A DNA stretch of 6,709 nt, from the IMG/VR virus record IMGVR_UViG_2802429221_000016, positions 1 through 6,709 of that record; one strand, written 5' to 3'. Each line of letters begins with the position of its first letter. Within the stretch, counting starts at the first letter, position 1. This stretch comes from a virus (taxonomy: Duplodnaviria > Heunggongvirae > Uroviricota > Caudoviricetes). Both the position numbers and the translations under genes were made by a program. Shown in pieces: positions 1 through 6,176 of this stretch. The notes under the pieces were generated by a model. The model made no database searches, was not told where the DNA came from, and was given only the letters and a program-made list of their open reading frames with translations.

Positions 1-996
1 TTAACCCACTAGCCAGATCAACATCACAATGATGACGACGAATAATATCCACAGGCTGGGGCGCATTGACATTTCTTTCATCGTGTCAATTAATGGGGTA
101 AATGGATTGAGCAGCGGTTGAATATCACGCGGTTCAATGCCTTTCACCCGCCGCTGATAGAGCTGGTTAAGGATATCTTCGGCCTGTGCAGACGTCAGGG
201 CTGATTGTGTTGAAAGCCCATACTTTTGCTCAACATACGTCGATAATACCGTCAACTCGCTTGCATCCAGTGGCTGCTTTAGCGCCATCTGGAGTGACTC
301 CAGCGTCGGAGTGTGTTGCTGACTTAACGCCTGACGGGCCTGTAACCAGGTGACCAGATGGTTAAACAGTTTCGCCGGAATCAACTCGCCATCTTTCACC
401 CCTGAAAGTTCCAGCATCGATTGCCAAATCTGTTTGCTGGGTTCCCCTGTTGCCGCCGCGAGTTTGGTGACCAGTTGCTTGAGCGTATTGTGTTCCGCTG
501 GTAATAAAGGTCGGTCGGTCGCCTGGCGCTGTTGCGGCTGCGGGATAACCATCTTCCCTTCCTGTAGTAGCGTCAGGACGGTTTTTAATTGCTCTGGTGA
601 GAGTTGATTTAGCGGCGTCTGACCAAAGTTATGCCGGATATAATCCGTGACGGCCTGACGATTATTCCCCAGACGTAAATACTCCCCCAATTGGGCCAAA
701 AGTTGGCGGACAGAATAACTTTTTTGCGCAGACAGCAAACGTTGCGCAAGGTTTTGTTCTGCTGCCGGGAAATGGCGTGAAAGCAAAGGTGAATCACCCG
801 GCAGACCGATGTCGTGCTTTATATTGGCCCACAACTCTGCGCTCTGCTGTTGCGTCAGCGAAGTCACTTTGATCATCAAACTTTCCAACGCGGTACGTTG
901 CAAGCTGGATAAAGGCTGATTGCCTGCGCCAGACGACAGGTTATCCCCCTGACCTGGTGGTTGCGCAGGAGGAGGGCCTGAAAGAGGTTGTATCAT
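1..996 (-). CDS. flk: Flk-like tail-anchored inner-membrane protein (flagellar regulator Flk), complete
   Basis: 331-aa ORF. ATG at 996..994 with AAGGA Shine-Dalgarno 7 nt upstream (plus coords 1004-1008, read on minus strand). Pro/Gln-rich N-terminus MIQPLSGPPPAQPPGQGDNL and a single hydrophobic anchor SLWILFVVIIVMLIWLVG directly before the stop. Length, C-terminal anchor and position next to pdxB match enterobacterial Flk as I remember it; not verified by search. Confidence 0.7.
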   Translation of the reverse strand: MIQPLSGPPPAQPPGQGDNLSSGAGNQPLSSLQRTALESLMIKVTSLTQQQSAELWANIKHDIGLPGDSPLLSRHFPAAEQNLAQRLLSAQKSYSVRQLLAQLGEYLRLGNNRQAVTDYIRHNFGQTPLNQLSPEQLKTVLTLLQEGKMVIPQPQQRQATDRPLLPAEHNTLKQLVTKLAAATGEPSKQIWQSMLELSGVKDGELIPAKLFNHLVTWLQARQALSQQHTPTLESLQMALKQPLDASELTVLSTYVEQKYGLSTQSALTSAQAEDILNQLYQRRVKGIEPRDIQPLLNPFTPLIDTMKEMSMRPSLWILFVVIIVMLIWLVG

Positions 997-1095: not shown

Positions 1096-1140
1096 GTGAA
1101 AATCCTTGTTGATGAAAAAGATGATCGGTTAATTTATTGA
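1096..1140 (+). pseudogene. pdxB: 5' remnant of pdxB (erythronate-4-phosphate dehydrogenase): native start plus 7 codons, then foreign sequence and a stop
   Basis: GTG at 1096 preceded by AGGT (1083-1086) reads M-K-I-L-V-D-E, identical to the PdxB N-terminus as I recall it (MKILVDENMPYA...). It then reads K-D-D-R-L-I-Y-stop (TGA 1138-1140) instead of N-M-P-Y-A. It is divergent from flk, as pdxB is in E. coli/Salmonella. The match is only 7 residues, so this rests on context and needs alignment to a reference. Confidence 0.4.
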
Positions 1141-1160
1141 TATAAAAGGATTTATATCAA
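1137..1160. repeat. Perfect 10-bp inverted repeat TTGATATAAA-agga-TTTATATCAA just inside the junction
   Basis: Read directly: 1137-1146 is the reverse complement of 1151-1160, with a 4-bp spacer. It overlaps the stop of the pdxB remnant. Candidate recombinase/regulator binding site or element-terminal structure; function not established. Confidence 0.5.
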
Positions 1161-1199
1161 CGTATGTCCACGCAGTGACCACATTTTCGAGATATAGTT

Positions 1200-1230
1200 A
1201 AAGCCCGTAAAATATGCGGGCTTTATAATT
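1200..1230 (+). terminator. Intrinsic-terminator-like hairpin followed by a U-rich tract
   Basis: AAAGCCCG (1200-1207) pairs with CGGGCTTT (1217-1224) around a 9-nt loop, followed by TATAATTCTTGCTTT. It would stop read-through from the native pdxB promoter into the element. The stem is flanked by A and T runs, so it could also act weakly on the minus strand. Confidence 0.4.
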
Positions 1231-1231
1231 C

Positions 1232-1261
1232 TTGCTTTGCCCTCTTTTCAAACCATAAAAT
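1232..1261 (+). promoter_or_regulatory. Candidate sigma70 promoter for the moron gene
   Basis: TTGCTT (1232-1237), 18-bp spacer, TAAAAT (1256-1261); predicted start about 1268, roughly 49 nt upstream of the ATG. Hexamer match only, AT-rich background, so weak. Confidence 0.3.
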
Positions 1262-1316
1262 TTGTGTGCCTTTTTGGGGTGGTTAGTTTTATCTTTGATA
1301 TTATGGAGAATTATTC

Positions 1317-2057
1317 ATGCTTCATTGGGTTTGTACAAAATGTCAGTCTAAAAATTCTACGAAGGAATCAGTGTGTCCTGCGTGTGGAACTTCTTTTTGG
1401 TCGACGCAGAAAAAAGAAAGGAGAGGGTGTTTATTGTTGGTTGTAATGTTCTTCGTTGTGTTTTGGGTTATTGGGCAATTATCCGGAAACGAATCCGATT
1501 CACAGGTAAATAATATTCCATCGAAAGATCATATTAGCGATGAACTTGCTTTATCTGGAGTAGACAAGGCGAAACCGTATTCTTTTGTGCGTTATGATGA
1601 CATAAGTTATGCGGGACGAAAGAGATTTAAGGTTTTTATAGTGTCGCCTGAGTCTCAAGATTTAGAATCAAGAGCTTCGACAGCAATGGCCGCGGCTATT
1701 GAGTGGCAGAAAGAGAAGAGAGCTGACTTTGTATCTGTGTTGCTTCTACCTACAGAAAATTCTGAAGGTAGTTATCGGTTGGCAATGGTTGATTATTCTC
1801 CGGATGGTTGCGGAACTGGTGCTGTATGTGATAATAAAAAATGGACTATATTGTCTAGTGACGTAATATTAACGAAATCGCAACTTCAATCTATATCCTT
1901 GTGGAATGAGTATAAGAAAAAGTTTGCGGGTAATGATGGAATTTTGGATTTAAAGGAAGAAAAGAAATTGAAGCAGTTTATTAGTAAACAGCTAAATATT
2001 CCTGTTAAGGATGTATTTGCTCCAGATATTTTTCCTTTAAAGAAAATCGAAGATTAA
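1317..2057 (+). CDS. Moron-like membrane protein: N-terminal Cys4 zinc ribbon, one TM helix, about 190-aa C-terminal domain; function unknown
   Basis: 246-aa ORF with GGAG (1305-1308) 8 nt before the ATG. CxxC-x10-CxxC (C6, C9, C20, C23), basic stretch QKKERRG, hydrophobic segment CLLLVVMFFVVFWVIGQL (about residues 38-55), then a hydrophilic domain containing a CGTGAVC cysteine pair. Positive-inside rule suggests N-in/C-out. Visibly AT-rich relative to flanks (by eye, not computed). Followed by a terminator. I do not recognise the C-terminal domain. Confidence 0.8.
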   Translation: MLHWVCTKCQSKNSTKESVCPACGTSFWSTQKKERRGCLLLVVMFFVVFWVIGQLSGNESDSQVNNIPSKDHISDELALSGVDKAKPYSFVRYDDISYAGRKRFKVFIVSPESQDLESRASTAMAAAIEWQKEKRADFVSVLLLPTENSEGSYRLAMVDYSPDGCGTGAVCDNKKWTILSSDVILTKSQLQSISLWNEYKKKFAGNDGILDLKEEKKLKQFISKQLNIPVKDVFAPDIFPLKKIED

Positions 2058-2128
2058 CAAAATAAATAGACGAGACTGAATTAGTATTATTGTAATCTTT
2101 AACTGGTACCCTCACTTGTGAGGGCACC

Positions 2129-2172
2129 AAAAAGAAAACCCGCAGTTTTTACGCTGCGGGTTTCTGCTTTGG
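2129..2172. terminator. Bidirectional intrinsic terminator between the convergent moron and hok transcripts
   Basis: Hairpin CCCGCAG (2139-2145) / CTGCGGG (2154-2160) with an 8-nt loop. Plus strand: followed by TTTCTGCTTT (2161-2170). Minus strand: followed by UUUUCUUUUU (complement of 2129-2138). A second imperfect hairpin (2105-2128, CCCTCA...TGAGGG) sits immediately next to it. Confidence 0.6.
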
Positions 2173-2216
2173 GATGTGTATAGGGTGCCTTATCGACCTT
2201 ACCCTGGCAACCGATT

Positions 2217-2251
2217 GACGGGGAAGTTGCCTTCCCCGTCGCGGTTTTCTT
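2217..2251. other. Perfect 10-bp palindromic hairpin abutting the hok stop codon
   Basis: GACGGGGAAG (2217-2226), loop TTGC, CTTCCCCGTC (2231-2240), then GCGG + TTTTCTT on the plus strand. It could be a second plus-strand terminator, or, read on the minus strand, a structured element in the hok 3' UTR. Confidence 0.4.
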
Positions 2252-2393
2252 ACTGTCTACACTGTAAGAACGCCGCAAACTCCGCTCCCCAGAAGCTCAT
2301 CCGTATCTCGCAGAGCGAACCCTGCAACATCCAGATGATGAGGATTGCCGTCACGCACAGTGTGGTGATGGCGATTAGCGATTTTTGCGACAT
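2250..2393 (-). CDS. hok: Hok/Gef-family type I toxin (small membrane-depolarising peptide), 47 aa
   Basis: Not in the ORF track (below its length cut-off). Minus-strand ATG at 2393..2391 with AGGAG 8 nt upstream; stop TAA at 2252..2250. Translation: MSQKSLIAITTLCVTAILIIWMLQGSLCEIRMSFWGAEFAAFLQCRQ. It shares the family layout (N-terminal TM helix, then W-M-x-x-x-S-L-C-E-I/L, then E-x-A-A-F-L-x-C) with E. coli HokA (...FTWMIRDSLCELHIKQESYELAAFLACKLKE) and R1 Hok (...[25 protein letters not shown]), both quoted from memory. Confidence 0.8.
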   Translation of the reverse strand: MSQKSLIAITTLCVTAILIIWMLQGSLCEIRMSFWGAEFAAFLQCRQ

Positions 2394-2496
2394 AGCGCTT
2401 GCTCCTTTTTCGGGGAGGCGCTAACCTACGACTTGCGAAGGTTGTATGGCTAGGGCCTCGGGTTAACGTTAAAGTTGACTCGGGGCCTTTCCACAT
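2257..2496 (-). CDS. mok: mok-like overlapping reading frame (modulator of hok translation)
   Basis: 79-codon ORF in a different frame that begins upstream of hok and overlaps nearly all of it, ending 7 nt from the hok stop. ATG at 2496 with GAAGG upstream. The protein is low-complexity and basic, as expected for a frame that exists for translational coupling rather than for its product. The true start could be internal. Confidence 0.4.
   Translation of the reverse strand: MWKGPESTLTLTRGPSHTTFASRRLAPPRKRSKRYVAKIANRHHHTVRDGNPHHLDVAGFALRDTDELLGSGVCGVLTV
2454..2487 (+). other. Strand-specific RNA hairpin (14 bp with three G-U pairs) antisense to the mok 5' region
   Basis: GGCCTCGGGTTAAC (2454-2467) pairs with GTTGACTCGGGGCC (2474-2487) around loop GTTAAA. 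All three non-Watson-Crick positions are G-U/U-G on the plus-strand RNA and would be C-A mismatches on the minus-strand RNA. Candidate part of a Sok-like antisense RNA; only TTT follows, so it is not a convincing terminator on its own. Confidence 0.3.
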
Positions 2497-2546
2497 TCGG
2501 CCTTCGGGTTTACCCTCCAGCCATCAGCCGAAAGGCACCCGCGCGA

Positions 2547-2576
2547 ATTCTAGCCTGGTTTTTTCCCTTGTTTCAA
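2547..2576 (-). promoter_or_regulatory. Candidate sigma70 promoter for the hok/mok mRNA
   Basis: On the minus strand: TTGAAA (plus coords 2576..2571), 18-bp spacer, TAGAAT (2552..2547); predicted start about 2540, giving a transcript of about 410 nt to the terminator at about 2130. Hexamer match only. Confidence 0.3.
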
Positions 2577-2580
2577 TCCG

Positions 2581-2610
2581 TTGAGACTTATCAGCCTTCT
2601 GATGTAAAAT
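2581..2610 (+). promoter_or_regulatory. Near-consensus sigma70 promoter of the candidate sRNA
   Basis: TTGAGA (2581-2586), 18-bp spacer, TAAAAT (2605-2610). It is back-to-back with the candidate hok promoter; the two -35 elements are 4 bp apart. Confidence 0.45.
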
Positions 2611-2616
2611 TCCCGA

Positions 2617-2681
2617 CCGCAGACATTATTCAGTCACGCATTTGATACATGCTTCCGCCGGCGTTCGCGCCGGTTTTTTTT
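2617..2681 (+). ncRNA. Candidate small RNA, about 65 nt, from promoter to intrinsic terminator
   Basis: Predicted start about 2616-2619, 7-9 nt after the -10. The 3' end is a hairpin CCGGCG (2658-2663), loop TTCG, CGCCGG (2668-2673) followed by eight T (2674-2681). No plausible ORF inside (the only ATG frame runs through the terminator). Sok-like antitoxin RNAs are about this size, but this unit overlaps the hok mRNA only if that mRNA starts to the right of 2681; identity unresolved. Confidence 0.4.
2656..2681 (+). terminator. Textbook Rho-independent terminator (GC stem, UUCG tetraloop, U8)
   Basis: Read directly: perfect 6-bp GC stem, extendable by one G-U pair, UUCG loop, eight consecutive T. 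Plus-strand specific (no U-run on the other side). Confidence 0.7.
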
Positions 2682-2915
2682 CGTCCTGTTGCTGCATAGA
2701 TCGTCATGCGCGATCGAGGCGCGGTATTGATCCTTTTTCAGTTTAATTTTGACTCTCAATTTTACGCATGCCGCGCCGCGTCTGGCTTCGTTGTTTGACG
2801 ATTTTTTGATGCGATCCTTTCGTGATCGTTTCCCGTCTCGCGTAAAATGCAAAAACTCTTTTAATATCATGCGGTTTTATTGCCCCTGCCATTTATGCGA
2901 TCGTAAAAACCACTC

Positions 2916-3020
2916 TGAAAACTGAAAAAAATTTCAAAGCGTGAAATTTCAGATCTTCGCTTTTCCCTCAGTTGCTGCGCGGGCTGGCGGTCATTTTTGC
3001 ACGGCAGAAAACTGAAAAAC
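2916..3020. repeat. A-tract repeat cluster: two copies of GAAAACTGAAAAA plus TGAAA/TTTCA palindromes
   Basis: GAAAACTGAAAAA at 2917-2929 and again at 3007-3019 (13/13). TGAAA-aaaa-TTTCA at 2923-2936 and the perfect 10-bp palindrome TGAAATTTCA at 2942-2951. Non-coding; candidate regulator or nucleoid-protein binding sites. Confidence 0.5.
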
Positions 3021-3033
3021 TGTTTCGACACAA

Positions 3034-3100
3034 AACCCGCGGGTTGGAGGGGGTAGCGCGGTTTACGTCACCTCACGCTTTACGTCACACCGTTTACGTG
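3034..3100. repeat. 12-bp perfect palindrome followed by three direct repeats of TTTACGT(C/G)
   Basis: AACCCGCGGGTT (3034-3045) is self-complementary. TTTACGTCA at 3062-3070 and 3079-3087, and TTTACGTG at 3093-3100, spaced 17 and 14 bp. Lies just downstream of the terminator-like hairpin that follows the 565-aa gene. Candidate operator / iteron / arm-type protein-binding array. Confidence 0.5.
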
Positions 3101-3149
3101 GTGTGCGCATACAGCGCCGGAATGGCACGCAGAACGCATTAATCATGTG

Positions 3150-3184
3150 GCAGATATGAAAACGCACGACCGGAGCCGTGCGTT
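3150..3184 (-). terminator. Candidate intrinsic terminator of the minus-strand structural operon
   Basis: AACGCACG (3161-3168) pairs with CGTGCGTT (3177-3184) around an 8-nt loop, about 40 nt after the stop at 3222-3224. On the minus-strand RNA it is followed by UUUUCAUAUCU. Confidence 0.4.
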
Positions 3185-3221
3185 GCGTGATGGGCGTTTA
3201 TGGGGGTTTTATGCCCGGTGA

Positions 3222-4919
3222 TCAGGCGATAAGGTCACCGTATTTTTCGCGCAGGCTCGTAGCCTGTTTGGCGTCTGCGGCAAGTTCGCTGCTGTTTGTT
3301 GGTGCGCCGGTGTTGCTGTGGGTGTGGTTTGCAGTGTGTGTGGCCAGCAACTGAACCAGATCCAGAATATCAATCAACAACGTCAGCAGATTAAGTCCGG
3401 ATTTTTCCCGTGAGCCACCGCGACCAATAAATACTGTCGGGGCTGTAAACTCCAGACCGCCGTCCGCCCGGCATGTTCTGCGGCCTCCCACGTTTTCAGT
3501 AAGGTCGCGCTCAATCGTGGATGTCGCCCCTTTGAGTTTAGTCAGCAAATCCTGCGCTACCATCTGGATATGCTCACCGGCTGCGATCGCATAATGACCA
3601 GTAGTAATGTGTTCTGTCTGGCCTGTCATCAGCTTGCTGGTTCCCAGAACGCTGGTTATGTCGTTTGCCTGTACTGTTGTTGTTCTGGTTGTTGTTGTGC
3701 GTTCTTCCTGATCGCTGTTAATGGTTCGCCTGGCTGAATGCTCCCTGATTTGCTGATCGGTTTCTCTGTGCCAGCTTCCGTCAGTCGTGACGCGCTGAAA
3801 CACTTCTGCGCGCTGTTGCTGCAGCTGTTCGCCGGGCTTTACATCAGGCAGGTTATGGCCAGCGGGTAAGATTTGCCTGATGACAGGTTTATCCGGTCGT
3901 CCTTCAATGTTGGATATTTCCACGATGGTGCCAGCCGGCGGGTAGGCAAAACATCCCGCCTCACTGCCAGCCATGGGGACGGGGAGCGGTACTGCCGGGT
4001 AAACGGGCGTATCGCTTTTATCGTTGCCGTTCTCATCAAGCAACTGCACATCGACGGCGTAGCGTGGGCGGAAACTGTCGGCCACATCGCCCAGGGTGGC
4101 GGGCTCCGTTGGTGCAATGACGCGCGCCAGCCGGGTATGTAGCGTACCGCTGGCCAGTTCCGGGAACTGTGTTTCCATTTGTCTGCGTAATGGTGATTTG
4201 GAAACAGGGCTGCCCGTGGCGGTAAGGCGCTCCCATGTCAGGGTCATTTTCTCGTTGTTGAGGGCTACACGGGTAATGCGCCCGGCCGGAAGGTTCACGC
4301 CCGGTCGCACAGTTTCCATAAACATGATGTCGATGCTGTTTCCGCCGCTTTGCCCGAGTGTGTACTGTTGCGGAATATCCGGCATTGTAATACTGGCAAA
4401 TCGTGAATCAGCTGCGCTTCCCACAAATACAGAACCGTCCGGCATTGGATGCCAGACGTAATCGCTGATACTGAATGCTCGCCCCAGTTGGCTGAGCAGT
4501 TGTGCTCCGCTGCCGCTGTGGGTGATGTAGGGAGTTGGTATGCTGACGTAATCCGCATCTGGCGTGGTGAAAACGATGCCGCTTTGTTTGCCCAGATTAT
4601 CGAGTACCCCCCGCAACGTCGGGTGTTGCATGGAGCAAGGGAAATCAAAATCCAGCACAGCAGCTGCTTCACGGATAAAAAGGCGACGTGAGCCATTTTC
4701 AGCAGGTTGATCGCGCTCAATGTAGCCGGAGAAATAGCGCCATGCTTCACCGTCACGGCCGAGATCAATTTGTACCATTGCGCCGGCAAGGCTGTGTTCG
4801 GGTGACAGATTGTTAACAGAAATGAAGCCACGACCGGCAGCATTCAGGGTAAGAACAAGGTTTATATCGGCAATTTCCACCCGTTCGCCATTAATCATGC
4901 AGCGTTGTATCAATTTCAT
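3222..4919 (-). CDS. Phage baseplate hub/central spike protein (fused gp27-like N-terminal region + gp5/gpV-like OB-fold and needle), 565 aa
   Basis: Strong SD GAGGAAGGG upstream; start overlaps the upstream stop (ATGA at 4916-4919). The segment PPAGTIVEISNIEGRPDKPVIRQIL fits the OB-fold signature of phage gp5/gpV and T6SS VgrG (typical VgrG form P-R-I-G-Q-E-V-V-V-D-F-L-E-G-D-P-D-Q-P-I-I, from memory). It is followed by Thr-rich beta-strand-like repeats (TTTTRTTTV, HITTGHYAIAAGEHI) and a His-rich apex THTANHTHSNTG resembling the metal-binding tip of P2 gpV-type spikes. The N-terminal 320 aa is unassigned and the hub call is inference. Confidence 0.55.
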   Translation of the reverse strand: MKLIQRCMINGERVEIADINLVLTLNAAGRGFISVNNLSPEHSLAGAMVQIDLGRDGEAWRYFSGYIERDQPAENGSRRLFIREAAAVLDFDFPCSMQHPTLRGVLDNLGKQSGIVFTTPDADYVSIPTPYITHSGSGAQLLSQLGRAFSISDYVWHPMPDGSVFVGSAADSRFASITMPDIPQQYTLGQSGGNSIDIMFMETVRPGVNLPAGRITRVALNNEKMTLTWERLTATGSPVSKSPLRRQMETQFPELASGTLHTRLARVIAPTEPATLGDVADSFRPRYAVDVQLLDENGNDKSDTPVYPAVPLPVPMAGSEAGCFAYPPAGTIVEISNIEGRPDKPVIRQILPAGHNLPDVKPGEQLQQQRAEVFQRVTTDGSWHRETDQQIREHSARRTINSDQEERTTTTRTTTVQANDITSVLGTSKLMTGQTEHITTGHYAIAAGEHIQMVAQDLLTKLKGATSTIERDLTENVGGRRTCRADGGLEFTAPTVFIGRGGSREKSGLNLLTLLIDILDLVQLLATHTANHTHSNTGAPTNSSELAADAKQATSLREKYGDLIA

Positions 4920-5491
4920 GTTTTCCCTTCCTCTTTCACACTCCCAATGCCAACAGCATCCAGACCAGAGCCAACGGCATCATTGATTTTTTTCCAGAAC
5001 GAACTTTGCGTATTCATGCCTTTGTCTGGTGCCTGTTCGCTGCCATTCTGGGTCTGCTGTCTGGCGATGGTTTTTTGTGAACCGCTACGTGCTGATGCTT
5101 TCTCTGGCACGCTTAATTTTTCCCTGAGAGTAAAGGTGACCTGCCAGTGCATTTTTCCCTGTTGTTCCGTGGCATCAATGCCACCAGAAAATACCCCCTG
5201 TCGCATATTGATTGCCTTCGCGGTAGCGTTAGCAATGCGATATGTTTTTTTAGCACCGTTGCTTTCTGTTGCCTCCGCAAGCTGAAAAATACGGGTCAGA
5301 ATAGCTTCATCGTTAAAATCAATAACCCCCGACACGCGCAGCTCTTTAGCCTTGTTTCCCTGCTGGGCGCTCGTGGTGCTGGTTGACTGTCCGGACATAT
5401 CTTTGTCCGGTAGTTGCATGGTGGCGCTGACGGTGATGTTGCGCAGCAGAATGGCTTCCCCGTCAAGCGCAAGGACAATCATCTGGGTCAT
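4916..5491 (-). CDS. Phage structural-operon protein, 191 aa, function unknown (possibly tail/baseplate-associated)
   Basis: Long ORF in the same operon; its stop overlaps the next start in ATGA, and its start region overlaps the upstream ORF by 29 nt. No motif I can assign; the tail/baseplate guess is from position only. Confidence 0.6.
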   Translation of the reverse strand: MTQMIVLALDGEAILLRNITVSATMQLPDKDMSGQSTSTTSAQQGNKAKELRVSGVIDFNDEAILTRIFQLAEATESNGAKKTYRIANATAKAINMRQGVFSGGIDATEQQGKMHWQVTFTLREKLSVPEKASARSGSQKTIARQQTQNGSEQAPDKGMNTQSSFWKKINDAVGSGLDAVGIGSVKEEGKT

Positions 5492-6176
5492 GTAGTGCTT
5501 CCCTTAGTGATGAGAGATTATCGCCGACGAACAGCATCACAGCTGTAAAAACCCACTCGGGGTGTGGGATGTTTTTTTGTATCAGCACTGCAGCCTGGCT
5601 AAGAGCTCCCTTGTAGCAAAAGCGCCACACCGGGCAAAATTTTTGCCGGAGTGCGGCCTGCTGATCAGCGATTTCCTGTAAGGCTTTATCTCTCGCATTC
5701 ATGAACTGATGCAGCGATGATGACAATGTTTCCGGTGATGTGGCGGCAGGAGTGGCTGCCTGTGCAATGGTTGCCGCCAGCGACATGCTTCGAGTGGTCT
5801 GTGTCGACAGCATTATCGGTTCCGGAAGTGATGTTGCCGGTCTGGCGGGGATTTGCATTCTGCTGATGGCCAGTGAAAGCTGGCTGGAGATCATGCGGGA
5901 CATTCGTCCCACCTCCGGCAACGGAAATGCGCCTGAAAATTGCCTGGCGAGTGATAAAAACTCGCCAGCAGAAGGGGTGCAAAATAACAGCGCCACAATG
6001 TCTTTTTCTGTGCTTTCTTTCAGATAGGGTAAAAGTGCAGATACAGCATTTTCGGGGCTGAGATAACGCCCCGATGGTTTGATGTTTCCGGTATTTTCTG
6101 ACCATGGATGAAGGCAAACCACAGAGCATTTAATGTGCATGGCTGACGGACGCAGAATTGCCTTTTCCCATTTCAT
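5463..6176 (-). CDS. Phage structural-operon protein, 237 aa, function unknown
   Basis: Long ORF; its start overlaps the upstream stop (ATGA at 6173-6176). Ala/Thr/Ser-rich central linker. No recognisable motif. Confidence 0.6.
   Translation of the reverse strand: MKWEKAILRPSAMHIKCSVVCLHPWSENTGNIKPSGRYLSPENAVSALLPYLKESTEKDIVALLFCTPSAGEFLSLARQFSGAFPLPEVGRMSRMISSQLSLAISRMQIPARPATSLPEPIMLSTQTTRSMSLAATIAQAATPAATSPETLSSSLHQFMNARDKALQEIADQQAALRQKFCPVWRFCYKGALSQAAVLIQKNIPHPEWVFTAVMLFVGDNLSSLREALHDPDDCPCA

What the first reader, a model, noticed from the sequence alone, without database searches (positions are those of the whole stretch)
1119..3221. About 2.1 kb accessory hotspot between the element boundary and the end of the tail-type operon
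The interval packs a moron, a bidirectional terminator, a hok-type toxin locus, a candidate sRNA and two repeat arrays, with none of the long structural ORFs. Its composition is patchy. This is the pattern of a variable cargo/defence hotspot at a prophage end, and combinations such as a membrane-protein moron next to a type I toxin may act together.
Basis: inference. Interest (0 to 1): 0.55.

Follow-up and report, generated by a model that had tools for sequence, protein, structure and literature searches.

The report
Prophage end: cos, hok, swappable cargo
The interval is the last 2.1 kb of an HP1-like prophage inserted in the start of pdxB: only about 0.9 kb of it (a single gene of unknown function, DUF4875) is a real swap-in/swap-out cargo slot, while the "repeat arrays" are most probably the phage's DNA-packaging (cos) site and the rest is a standard hok toxin locus.

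Summary
Base 1119 is the first phage-specific base after a 20-bp att core (1099-1118, the 5' end of pdxB). Base 3221 is the last base before the stop of the final tail gene, a homologue of HP1 orf35.

The interval is a composite, not one accessory island.
- **Cos region (about 2700-3100):** this is conserved backbone. A 36-nt core (3033-3068) is identical in relatives whose neighbouring tail gene is only 53-62% identical. It aligns with the physical genome ends of phages ESSI-2 and SW5, and it sits where HP1 has its annotated cos. The two "repeat arrays" flank it.
- **Hok locus (2128-2576):** a canonical hok-type type I toxin locus, present in most but not all relatives.
- **Cargo slot (1226-2103):** this is the truly variable part. 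At least 10 different gene contents fill it in related prophages, about six of them at the same pdxB site. Here it holds one low-GC gene for a zinc-ribbon, membrane-anchored periplasmic DUF4875 protein that matches no known defence family.
- **Independence:** hok and DUF4875 occur independently, so a joint function is not supported.

Verdict: a well-documented new example of a known kind of prophage hotspot. Interest is moderate to low.

The parts
1099..1118 (.). att core (attR copy), AAAATCCTTGTTGATGAAAA. It overlaps the first codons of the original pdxB start (GTG at 1096).
   Evidence: The same 20 bp occur in K-12 attB and at both junctions of the related prophage L001. Empty-site homology ends at 1118.
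1119..1225 (.). Phage-side att arm, ending in a hairpin at 1199-1225. It forms the conserved left flank of the cargo slot.
   Evidence: It is shared at 85-87% identity with the P2-like Xuanwuvirus phages Chuche, P884B11, 500465-2 and Shae_phiSM. It is also shared with L028, L034 and L035, which carry other cargo. The hairpin folds with z -3.9.
1226..2103 (+). Variable cargo cassette. Here it holds one gene (CDS 1317-2057) for a 246-aa protein with an N-terminal zinc ribbon, one transmembrane helix and a periplasmic DUF4875 domain.
   Evidence: Pfam PF16175 at 7.4e-35 plus Zn_Ribbon_1. GC is 0.31-0.40. The cassette is present in only 7 of 5,426 complete E. coli genomes. The AlphaFold model has pLDDT 88 with a helix at residues 35-58. 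Homologues carry signal peptides or lipoboxes. There is no PADLOC hit.
2104..2172 (.). Two hairpins: 2104-2129, and 2127-2172 which is the hok mRNA terminator and is bidirectional in shape. Together they form the right flank of the cargo slot and a cluster of recombination breakpoints.
   Evidence: Terminator scan, minus strand 2164..2135. Folds with z -3.6, -5.6 and -4.8. Homology breakpoints in relatives fall at window 2104-2108, 2116, 2155 and 2180-2182.
2128..2540 (-). hok mRNA, about 410 nt. The 5' GGGUGCCUU (2540-2532) pairs with the 3' AAGGCACCC (complement of 2184-2192), which is fold-back inhibition.
   Evidence: The MFE structure pairs the 5' and 3' ends; z -7.83, 0 of 100 shuffles as stable. 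Rfam RF01794 matches 2380-2540 at 35.8 bits, E 2.2e-5, below the gathering score.
2250..2393 (-). Hok/Gef-family toxin CDS, 47 aa.
   Evidence: Pfam HOK_GEF at 29.3 bits against a cut-off of 22. phrog_251 'MokW-like host killing' at 2.8e-21. RefSeq annotates the homologues as Hok/Gef.
2257..2496 (-). mok-like overlapping reading frame, 79 aa, in a different frame from hok.
   Evidence: ORF list.
2547..2576 (-). hok mRNA promoter, TTGAAA-18-TAGAAT.
   Evidence: Promoter scan, 10 of 12 matches. The -35 region is conserved in L034, L029 and L041.
2581..2685 (+). Promoter-like site (2581-2610) plus an intrinsic terminator (2657-2674). This is a candidate RNA of about 65 nt and is indel-polymorphic.
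   Evidence: Found by the scan. It is present in L013, L030 and L034, where promoter and stem are kept but the body has diverged. It is absent from L029 and L041. The fold gives z -1.35. There is no Rfam match.
2700..3100 (.). Conserved non-coding cos region. It contains the invariant core 3033-3068 and the predicted cohesive-end segment at about 3043-3056 (GTTGGAGGGGGTAG). TTTTTCAGTTT elements lie at 2919-2929(-), 3009-3019(-) and 2734-2744(+). ACGTAAA elements lie at 3062-3068, 3079-3085 and 3093-3099 (-). A GATC cluster spans 2699-2952.
   Evidence: HP1 has cos between orf35 and attP. The ESSI-2 and SW5 record ends align here. The 36-nt core is identical in 6 diverged relatives. The block is 77-79% identical where the spike DNA is 53-62%. 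Edwardsiella prophages keep window 2918-3068 at 73.5%. Motif counts are above chance.
3160..3184 (-). Terminator of the tail operon: a hairpin followed by UUUUCAU.
   Evidence: Fold z -2.9. L041 shows a compensatory stem change (CACG/CGTG to CATG/CATG).
3222..4919 (-). Last tail gene, a homologue of the HP1 orf35 baseplate/spike protein. It lies outside the finding and is used as the anchor.
   Evidence: phrog_2258 at 4.6e-233. tblastn hits HP1 orf35 at 7e-108, and also ESSI-2, SW5 and K139. The neighbouring ORF matches Pfam HP1_ORF34.

Best explanation
Window 1119-3221 is the segment between cos and attR of an HP1-like (family Peduoviridae) prophage integrated into the first codons of pdxB. 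Reading from the tail gene towards the host, it contains five units.

1. The intrinsic terminator of the tail operon.
2. The cos packaging region. This is a G-rich invariant core where the terminase is inferred to make the staggered cut. It is flanked by ACGTAAA repeats on the tail side and TTTTTCAGTTT repeats on the att side. The repeats are inferred to be recognition or bending sites for the P2-type terminase. This unit is essential backbone.
3. A hok-type type I toxin locus. Its stable, folded hok mRNA is expected to be held in check by an antisense Sok RNA. That arrangement would penalise loss of the prophage or act on infection.
4. A cargo slot bounded by two conserved hairpin-containing flanks: the hok terminator and the att arm. 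Recombination between related phages exchanges cassettes through these flanks. The partners include P2-like Xuanwuvirus phages that share the same hok, att arm and integration site.
5. The att arm and att core.

In this window the slot holds a single low-GC gene. Its product is anchored in the inner membrane by a cytoplasmic zinc ribbon and one helix, and it displays a DUF4875 domain in the periplasm. The most likely role is a lysogen-expressed envelope function such as superinfection exclusion or immunity. That role is inferred, not shown.

**Shown:** the boundaries, the gene identities, the conservation pattern, and the variability of the slot.
**Inferred:** the cos cleavage position, terminase binding to the repeats, and the functions of Hok and DUF4875.
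For: **Junction.** The empty-site comparison places it at 1118/1119, with a 20-bp core.

**Element type.** Complete relatives carry an integrase next to pdxB and a P2-family head plus an HP1-type tail. Pfam HP1_ORF34 and the orf35 homologue confirm the type.

**Cos.**
- HP1 has an annotated cosL, with cos 192 bp after orf35 and 250 bp before attP.
- The ESSI-2 record ends 198 bp after the homologous gene and SW5 ends 175 bp after it. ESSI-2 has a 15-nt terminal repeat.
- MAFFT puts those ends on window 3043-3056.
- The 36-nt core 3033-3068 is invariant in six diverged relatives.
- The block is 77-79% identical where the adjacent spike DNA is 53-62%, and 73.5% identical in Edwardsiella where the spike DNA is about 66%.
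- TTTTTCAGTTT follows cos at a similar spacing in HP1, ESSI-2 and Edwardsiella.

**Hok.**

**Slot.** At least 10 different contents lie between the same flanks. The DUF4875 cassette is in 7 of the 50 E. coli genomes that carry this cos-spike region.

**DUF4875 topology.**
Against: - No physical ends were determined for this phage. The cos position rests on alignment to three sequenced phages, and only HP1 has annotated cohesive ends.
- The simple scan found no Sok promoter, and the Rfam match is below the gathering score.
- No sigma-70-like promoter was found upstream of DUF4875.
- The window shows only 6.7 kb, so this prophage may be defective. The relative in STEC308 is a deletion derivative.
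- For four IMG/VR loci (L016, L020, L030, L032) the att site was not seen, so their 'cargo' ORFs could be host genes.
Confidence: 0.8

Rival explanations
1. One reading: the whole 2.1 kb is one variable accessory/defence island, and the repeat arrays and the sRNA are part of the cargo.
For: Composition is patchy. Several small features lie here without structural genes. On a deeper time scale hok itself comes and goes: it is present in Edwardsiella L039 but absent from L015, ESSI-2, SW5 and HP1. In some E. coli elements it is replaced by a YafO pair.
Against: In 48 of the 50 E. coli genomes that match the 2600-3700 query, one place covers at least 80% of it. The region from about 2700 to 3100 is kept across genera and is more conserved than the adjacent coding DNA. 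The repeats sit at the position of known phage genome ends.
Confidence: 0.07
2. The repeats at 2730-3100 are not packaging signals. They are instead binding sites for integrase arms, IHF or Cox, or an origin or partition site.
For: TTTTTCAG also occurs three times in the int-proximal arm of the related prophage (L001 39680-39815). HP1 has a similar motif at the start of its attP. The relatives encode ParM/ParR. A GATC cluster, as found at some origins, lies at 2699-2952.
Against: The block is conserved among phages with different integrases and integration sites: pdxB, serS, raiA and tRNA. It lies 1.6-1.9 kb from the att core. It coincides with the physical ends of ESSI-2 and SW5 and with the HP1 cos position.
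Confidence: 0.08
3. DUF4875 and hok form one functional two-gene system, a membrane sensor paired with a membrane toxin.
For: They are adjacent and convergent and share a terminator region. Both products act at the inner membrane.
Against: Their distributions are independent. The hok module occurs with many other cargoes or with none. DUF4875 occurs next to a YafO pair without hok in L021. Homology breakpoints fall exactly between the two genes.
Confidence: 0.04

Closest known systems
cos-attP interval of Haemophilus phage HP1 (NC_001697) and of Cronobacter phage ESSI-2 / Salmonella phage SW5
   Same: The order is the same: last tail gene (orf35 homologue), terminator, cos about 175-200 bp downstream, then attP and int. 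A TTTTTCAGTT element follows cos, and the cos core is C/G-rich.
   Different: In those phages the interval is short and nearly gene-free: 250 bp from cos to attP in HP1, and no hok in any of the three. Here about 1.9 kb carrying hok and a cargo gene lies between cos and the att core.
[quoted passage not shown] 2022, PMC9122126; follow-up PMC13586616)
   Same: A variable slot lies next to cos in a Peduoviridae-type temperate phage. Its flanks are conserved and its contents are diverse, including an OLD/AbiL-like nuclease (HEC-04) in one relative.
   Different: In P2 the slot lies between gpA and the portal gene gpQ. Here cos has the HP1 position, and the slot lies between hok and the att site on the side away from int. 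Most cargoes here match no known defence family.
ogr-hok-cargo-attP end of P2-like Xuanwuvirus phages (P88, 500465-2, Chuche, Shae_phiSM)
   Same: They share the same hok module, the same att arm and pdxB integration site, and overlapping cargo sets: TagO+zinc ribbon, and Com+methyltransferase.
   Different: Their backbone is different. They have a true P2 tail and ogr next to hok, and they show no DNA match to the window's cos-spike region.
hok/sok of plasmid R1 and prophage hok loci ('MokW-like', phrog_251)
   Same: It has a Hok/Gef peptide, an overlapping mok-like frame, a structured mRNA of about 410 nt with 5'-3' fold-back, and a strong promoter.
   Different: The Sok RNA and its promoter were not located. 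The Rfam score is below the gathering threshold. The location is a prophage, not a plasmid.

Membership tests
hok/sok type I toxin-antitoxin | Small Hok/Gef-family membrane peptide | tested here: met
   PF01848 at 29.3 bits against a cut-off of 22. phrog_251 at 2.8e-21.
hok/sok type I toxin-antitoxin | Overlapping upstream mok reading frame | tested here: met
   ORF 2257-2496 (-) overlaps hok 2250-2393 in another frame.
hok/sok type I toxin-antitoxin | Long structured mRNA with 5'-3' fold-back pairing | tested here: met
   The MFE structure pairs 2540-2526 with the region near 2184-2200; z -7.83.
hok/sok type I toxin-antitoxin | Antisense Sok RNA with its own promoter | tested here: inconclusive
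   The scan found no + strand promoter in 2400-2480. The Rfam RF01794 match scores 35.8 bits against a gathering score of 59.
hok/sok type I toxin-antitoxin | Toxicity and post-segregational killing | not testable with these tools
   This needs an experiment.
cos site of HP1/P2-type phages | Position between the orf35 homologue and attP, as in HP1 | tested here: met
   HP1 annotation. The window core lies 154-189 bp downstream of the spike stop codon.
cos site of HP1/P2-type phages | Homology to the physical genome ends of sequenced relatives | tested here: met
   The ESSI-2 15-nt terminal repeat and the SW5 ends align to window 3043-3056.
cos site of HP1/P2-type phages | Sequence constraint stronger than in the flanking DNA | tested here: met
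   A 36-nt invariant core. The block is 77-79% identical where the spike DNA is 53-62%.
cos site of HP1/P2-type phages | Cohesive single-stranded ends in virion DNA of this phage | not testable with these tools
   No virion data are available.
Prophage accessory/defence hotspot | Conserved flanks with different gene content in related elements | tested here: met
   At least 10 configurations, about six of them at the same pdxB site.
Prophage accessory/defence hotspot | Cargo belongs to known anti-phage systems | tested here: inconclusive
   HEC-04 at 6e-204 and type II/orphan methyltransferases occur in relatives. There is no PADLOC hit for DUF4875, zinc-ribbon, VasI-like, or the 128-, 145- and 171-aa ORFs.
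Prophage accessory/defence hotspot | The whole stated interval (1119-3221) is variable | tested here: not met
   The region from about 2104 to 3221 is conserved in most relatives.
Moron (Hendrix-type) | Deviant composition and presence/absence polymorphism | tested here: met
   GC is 0.31-0.40. It is present in 7 of 50 related E. coli elements.
Moron (Hendrix-type) | Own promoter and terminator | tested here: inconclusive
   A terminator-shaped hairpin lies downstream. No promoter match was found upstream.
Pfam DUF4875 (PF16175) | Domain match above the gathering score | tested here: met

The most novel reading that the evidence does not exclude
The slot flanked by hok and the att arm, shared by HP1-like and P2-like (Xuanwuvirus) coliphages, may be an unexplored reservoir of envelope-acting exclusion or immunity genes. 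On this reading, the zinc-ribbon, membrane-anchored periplasmic DUF4875 protein would be a new anti-phage or anti-T6SS determinant. So would the zinc-ribbon+VasI/TagO-like cassettes that replace it. As a second point, the conserved GATC cluster beside cos would make packaging Dam-dependent, as at P1 pac.
Probability: 0.25. Interest if true: 0.55.

Novelty: new member of a known kind. Interest (0 to 1): 0.3.

Why it matters
It splits a stretch that looked uniformly accessory into an essential packaging site, a common addiction or abortive-infection module, and a small slot that is truly exchangeable. This matters in three ways.
- It gives exact flanks (1119-1225 and 2104-2180) with which the slot can be mined in other genomes.
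- It gives a testable cos position for a poorly studied group of HP1-like coliphages, found in about 1% of complete E. coli genomes.
- It extends the published rule that Peduoviridae hotspots lie near cos to a lineage in which cos has a different map position.

The cargo gene itself, DUF4875, has no known function, so any phenotype found for it would be new.

Tried and rejected
- **PADLOC** scan of the window proteins gave nothing.
- **NCBIfam** gave nothing for DUF4875.
- **Zinc-ribbon comparison.** BLASTP between the DUF4875 protein and the zinc-ribbon protein of the alternative cassette was not significant (E 0.33-0.9), so the N-termini are not demonstrably homologous.
- **Rfam** hits to Thr_leader (2129-2196) and RsmY (5432-5573) have E 0.3-0.8. 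They are a terminator hairpin and a chance match.
- **Literature search** for 'DUF4875' returned no papers. A search for ESSI-2 cohesive ends returned nothing useful.
- **The look-up of encoding contigs** for P0004 found no record.
- **Direct blastn** of the window against HP1 found no significant DNA match. The HP1 comparison therefore rests on gene order and short motifs only.
- **Sok promoter.** I looked by eye for one in 2400-2480 and found no convincing -35/-10 pair, so it is not claimed.
- **Small ORFs in 2600-3200** (34-78 aa) were considered and rejected. They are not annotated in any RefSeq relative. The start codon of the one I checked (2634-2870, minus strand) is not conserved in ESSI-2.

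Full report
**What the window is.**
The ORF at 1-996 (-) is flk. The sequence 1000-1118 is the flk-pdxB intergenic region plus the first codons of pdxB, and it matches essentially every complete E. coli genome. That homology stops at 1118. A 20-bp sequence, AAAATCCTTGTTGATGAAAA (1099-1118), is present once in K-12 and at both ends of the related prophage in E. coli STEC308.

Complete relatives carry an integrase next to pdxB, a P2-family head module and an HP1-type tail. In the window, ORF 4916-5491 matches Pfam HP1_ORF34. The 565-aa ORF 3222-4919 is the homologue of HP1 orf35. The finding therefore spans the far end of an HP1-like peduovirus prophage, from the last tail gene to attR.

**Check of the observation.**
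All listed items are present.
- The only sizeable ORF is 1317-2057 (+). It encodes 246 aa with a DUF4875 domain and an N-terminal zinc ribbon, and its GC is 0.31-0.40, against 0.52-0.55 in the neighbouring DNA.
- The hairpin at 2127-2172 folds well on both strands. Its T run is strong only on the minus strand.
- ORF 2250-2393 (-) is a Hok/Gef peptide.
- A promoter-like site at 2581-2610 followed by a terminator at 2657-2674 on the + strand is the probable 'candidate sRNA'.
- TTTTTCAGTTT occurs three times exactly, against 0.27 expected. ACGTAAA occurs three times within 38 nt.

**The repeat arrays are the flanks of cos.**
- *HP1.* Its annotated cohesive end lies 192 bp after orf35 and 250 bp before attP.
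- *ESSI-2 and SW5.* These are the closest sequenced phages, with 46-47% spike identity. ESSI-2 ends 198 bp after the homologous gene and SW5 ends 175 bp after it. ESSI-2 carries a 15-nt terminal repeat, CTACACCGCACCCGC.
- *Alignment to the window.* MAFFT places those ends on the window's minus-strand CTACCCCCTCCAAC, which is + strand 3043-3056.
- *Shared flanks.* On the tail side there is ACGTAAACCGCRCTAC. On the att side, at matching spacing, there is TTTTTCAGTTTT, then a GC-rich block and a second TTTTT(G)CAGTTTT. HP1 has TTTTTTCAGTT 35 nt after its cut site, against about 33 nt in the window.
- *Conservation in diverged relatives.* Among six Escherichia-group relatives, a 36-nt core (3033-3068) is invariant. 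The block 2830-3100 is 77-79% identical, while the adjacent spike DNA is 53-62% and the stretch 3101-3221 is about 55%.
- *Conservation in Edwardsiella.* These prophages have 61% spike protein identity and about 66% coding DNA identity, yet they keep window 2918-3068 at 73.5%.

I conclude with good confidence that about 2700-3100 is the packaging region. The repeats are then most likely terminase recognition or bending elements. The cleavage position and the binding are inferred, not shown.

**The hok locus.**
- A strong promoter at 2576..2547 (-) gives a transcript that starts near 2540 and ends at the terminator 2164..2135.
- This 413-nt RNA is far more stable than its shuffles (z -7.8). Its 5' end (GGGUGCCUU) pairs with AAGGCACCC near the 3' end. 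That is the fold-back arrangement typical of hok mRNAs.
- A mok-like frame (2257-2496) overlaps hok.
- The leader matches Rfam RF01794 below its threshold.
- I could not locate the Sok promoter.

**The variable slot.**
Relatives share the window from about 2104-2182 upwards, and those at the pdxB site also share 1-1225. What lies between differs.

At the pdxB/flk site the contents are:
- DUF4875 alone: the window, 7 complete E. coli genomes, and L019, L022, L025, L041 and L042;
- Com+methyltransferase+DUF4875: L034;
- methyltransferase+Com+a 128-aa ORF: L004;
- a 145-aa ORF+Com+methyltransferase: L035;
- zinc-ribbon+VasI/TagO-like proteins: L005 and L028, and also the P2-like prophage L009;
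- a YafO toxin pair replacing hok, plus DUF4875: L021.

At other sites the contents are:
- nothing, at serS: L006 and L013;
- Com+methyltransferase, with or without a TM2 protein, at raiA: L007, L017, L018 and L024;
- a YafO pair plus a nuclease matching PADLOC HEC-04 (6e-204): L008.

Four further loci (L016, L020, L030, L032) show other ORFs, but their att sites were not seen.

The cos-spike region occurs in 50 of 5,426 complete E. coli genomes, and the DUF4875 cassette in 7 of those. The att arm and the hok module are also shared, at 82-87% identity, with P2-like Xuanwuvirus phages that carry some of the same cassettes. So cassettes move between two phage lineages through these flanks.

On a deeper time scale hok is itself an insertion. 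It is present in one Edwardsiella prophage (L039) and absent from another (L015), and it is absent from ESSI-2, SW5 and HP1.

**The cargo gene.**
- The AlphaFold model is confident (pLDDT 88). It shows a zinc ribbon, a helix at residues 35-58, a disordered linker and an alpha/beta domain.
- Homologues replace the zinc ribbon and helix with signal peptides or lipoprotein boxes, so the DUF4875 domain is periplasmic.
- Its function is unknown. An envelope role expressed from the lysogen, such as exclusion or immunity, is the most plausible guess.
- Hok and DUF4875 are distributed independently, which argues against a joint system.

**The candidate sRNA.**
The promoter and the terminator stem are kept in L034, although the body has diverged. 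The whole 130-nt segment is missing from L029 and L041, and the fold is unremarkable. It remains a weak candidate.

**Comparison with what is known.**
Rousset et al. (PMC9122126) showed that P2-like phages and P4 satellites have defence hotspots next to cos, which in P2 means between gpA and gpQ. A 2026 follow-up (PMC13586616) lists minor P2 hotspots between int and att, between int and the primase, and within the tail genes. The present slot has the same logic but lies in an HP1-type genome, where cos sits between the last tail gene and attP. I found no description of it in the library. The search was not exhaustive.

**Verdict.**
This is a new example of a known kind of phage hotspot. The main correction is that about a fifth of the interval (about 2700-3100) is the essential packaging site. 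Interest is 0.3.

Noticed in passing
window 2699-2952: There is a GATC cluster: 7 of the window's 20 GATC sites fall within 254 bp beside cos (Markov simulations give P of about 0.009). Six sites lie at the same place in Edwardsiella prophages, including pairs 11 bp apart. This may mean Dam-dependent control of packaging, as at P1 pac (from memory), or SeqA binding. It is unexplained.
   Followed up: partly
L001 39780-39841 (int-proximal junction of the related prophage): Integration removes the native GTG start of pdxB. The phage arm supplies AAAGGAG plus an in-frame TTG 15 codons upstream of the next ATG. pdxB is therefore probably re-expressed with a phage-encoded N-terminus (MSETEKGLKILVDEN...). 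RefSeq instead annotates a shortened pdxB.
   Followed up: partly
window 2581-2685 (+): A small segment of about 130 nt carries a promoter-like site and an intrinsic terminator. It is present in some relatives and cleanly absent from others (L029, L041). It could be a small mobile or accessory RNA unit, or an insulator against antisense transcription into cos.
   Followed up: partly
L001 39680-39815; L010 (HP1) 240-262: The TTTTTCAG motif that flanks cos also occurs three times in the int-proximal att arm of the related prophage, and again at the start of HP1 attP. This is either chance in AT-rich DNA or a shared DNA-binding or bending factor.
   Followed up: no
L001 20001-39700 (E. coli STEC308): This relative is a deletion derivative. 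The tail fibre genes are joined directly to ParM/ParR and to a frameshifted replication gene, and there are no head genes. It still keeps cos, hok, DUF4875 and both att sites.
   Followed up: no
window 3222-4919 (-): RefSeq names the homologue in strain AJ1 a 'type VI secretion system Vgr family protein'. The NCBIfam VgrG match is far below its cut-off (19 bits against 122). The protein is the phage HP1 orf35-type baseplate/spike protein.
   Followed up: yes
window 1099-1201: The att core plus arm also matches a plasmid record (NZ_LR883008.1, 87% identity over 103 nt), under a gene annotated as a topoisomerase C-terminal repeat protein (H70).
   Followed up: no
window 2380-2540 (-): Rfam RF01794, named 'sok antitoxin', matches the strand that encodes hok, and its consensus ends in the hok AUG. 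The model therefore seems to describe the hok mRNA leader and not the antisense RNA.
   Followed up: no
window 3160-3184 (-) versus L041: The tail-operon terminator stem shows a compensatory double change in a diverged relative (CACG/CGTG to CATG/CATG). This supports a real hairpin.
   Followed up: yes
L039 12538-12690 versus L015: An Edwardsiella HP1-like prophage carries a Hok-family ORF between cos and its tRNA att site. A close relative lacks it. This shows hok gain or loss in the same interval in another genus.
   Followed up: partly
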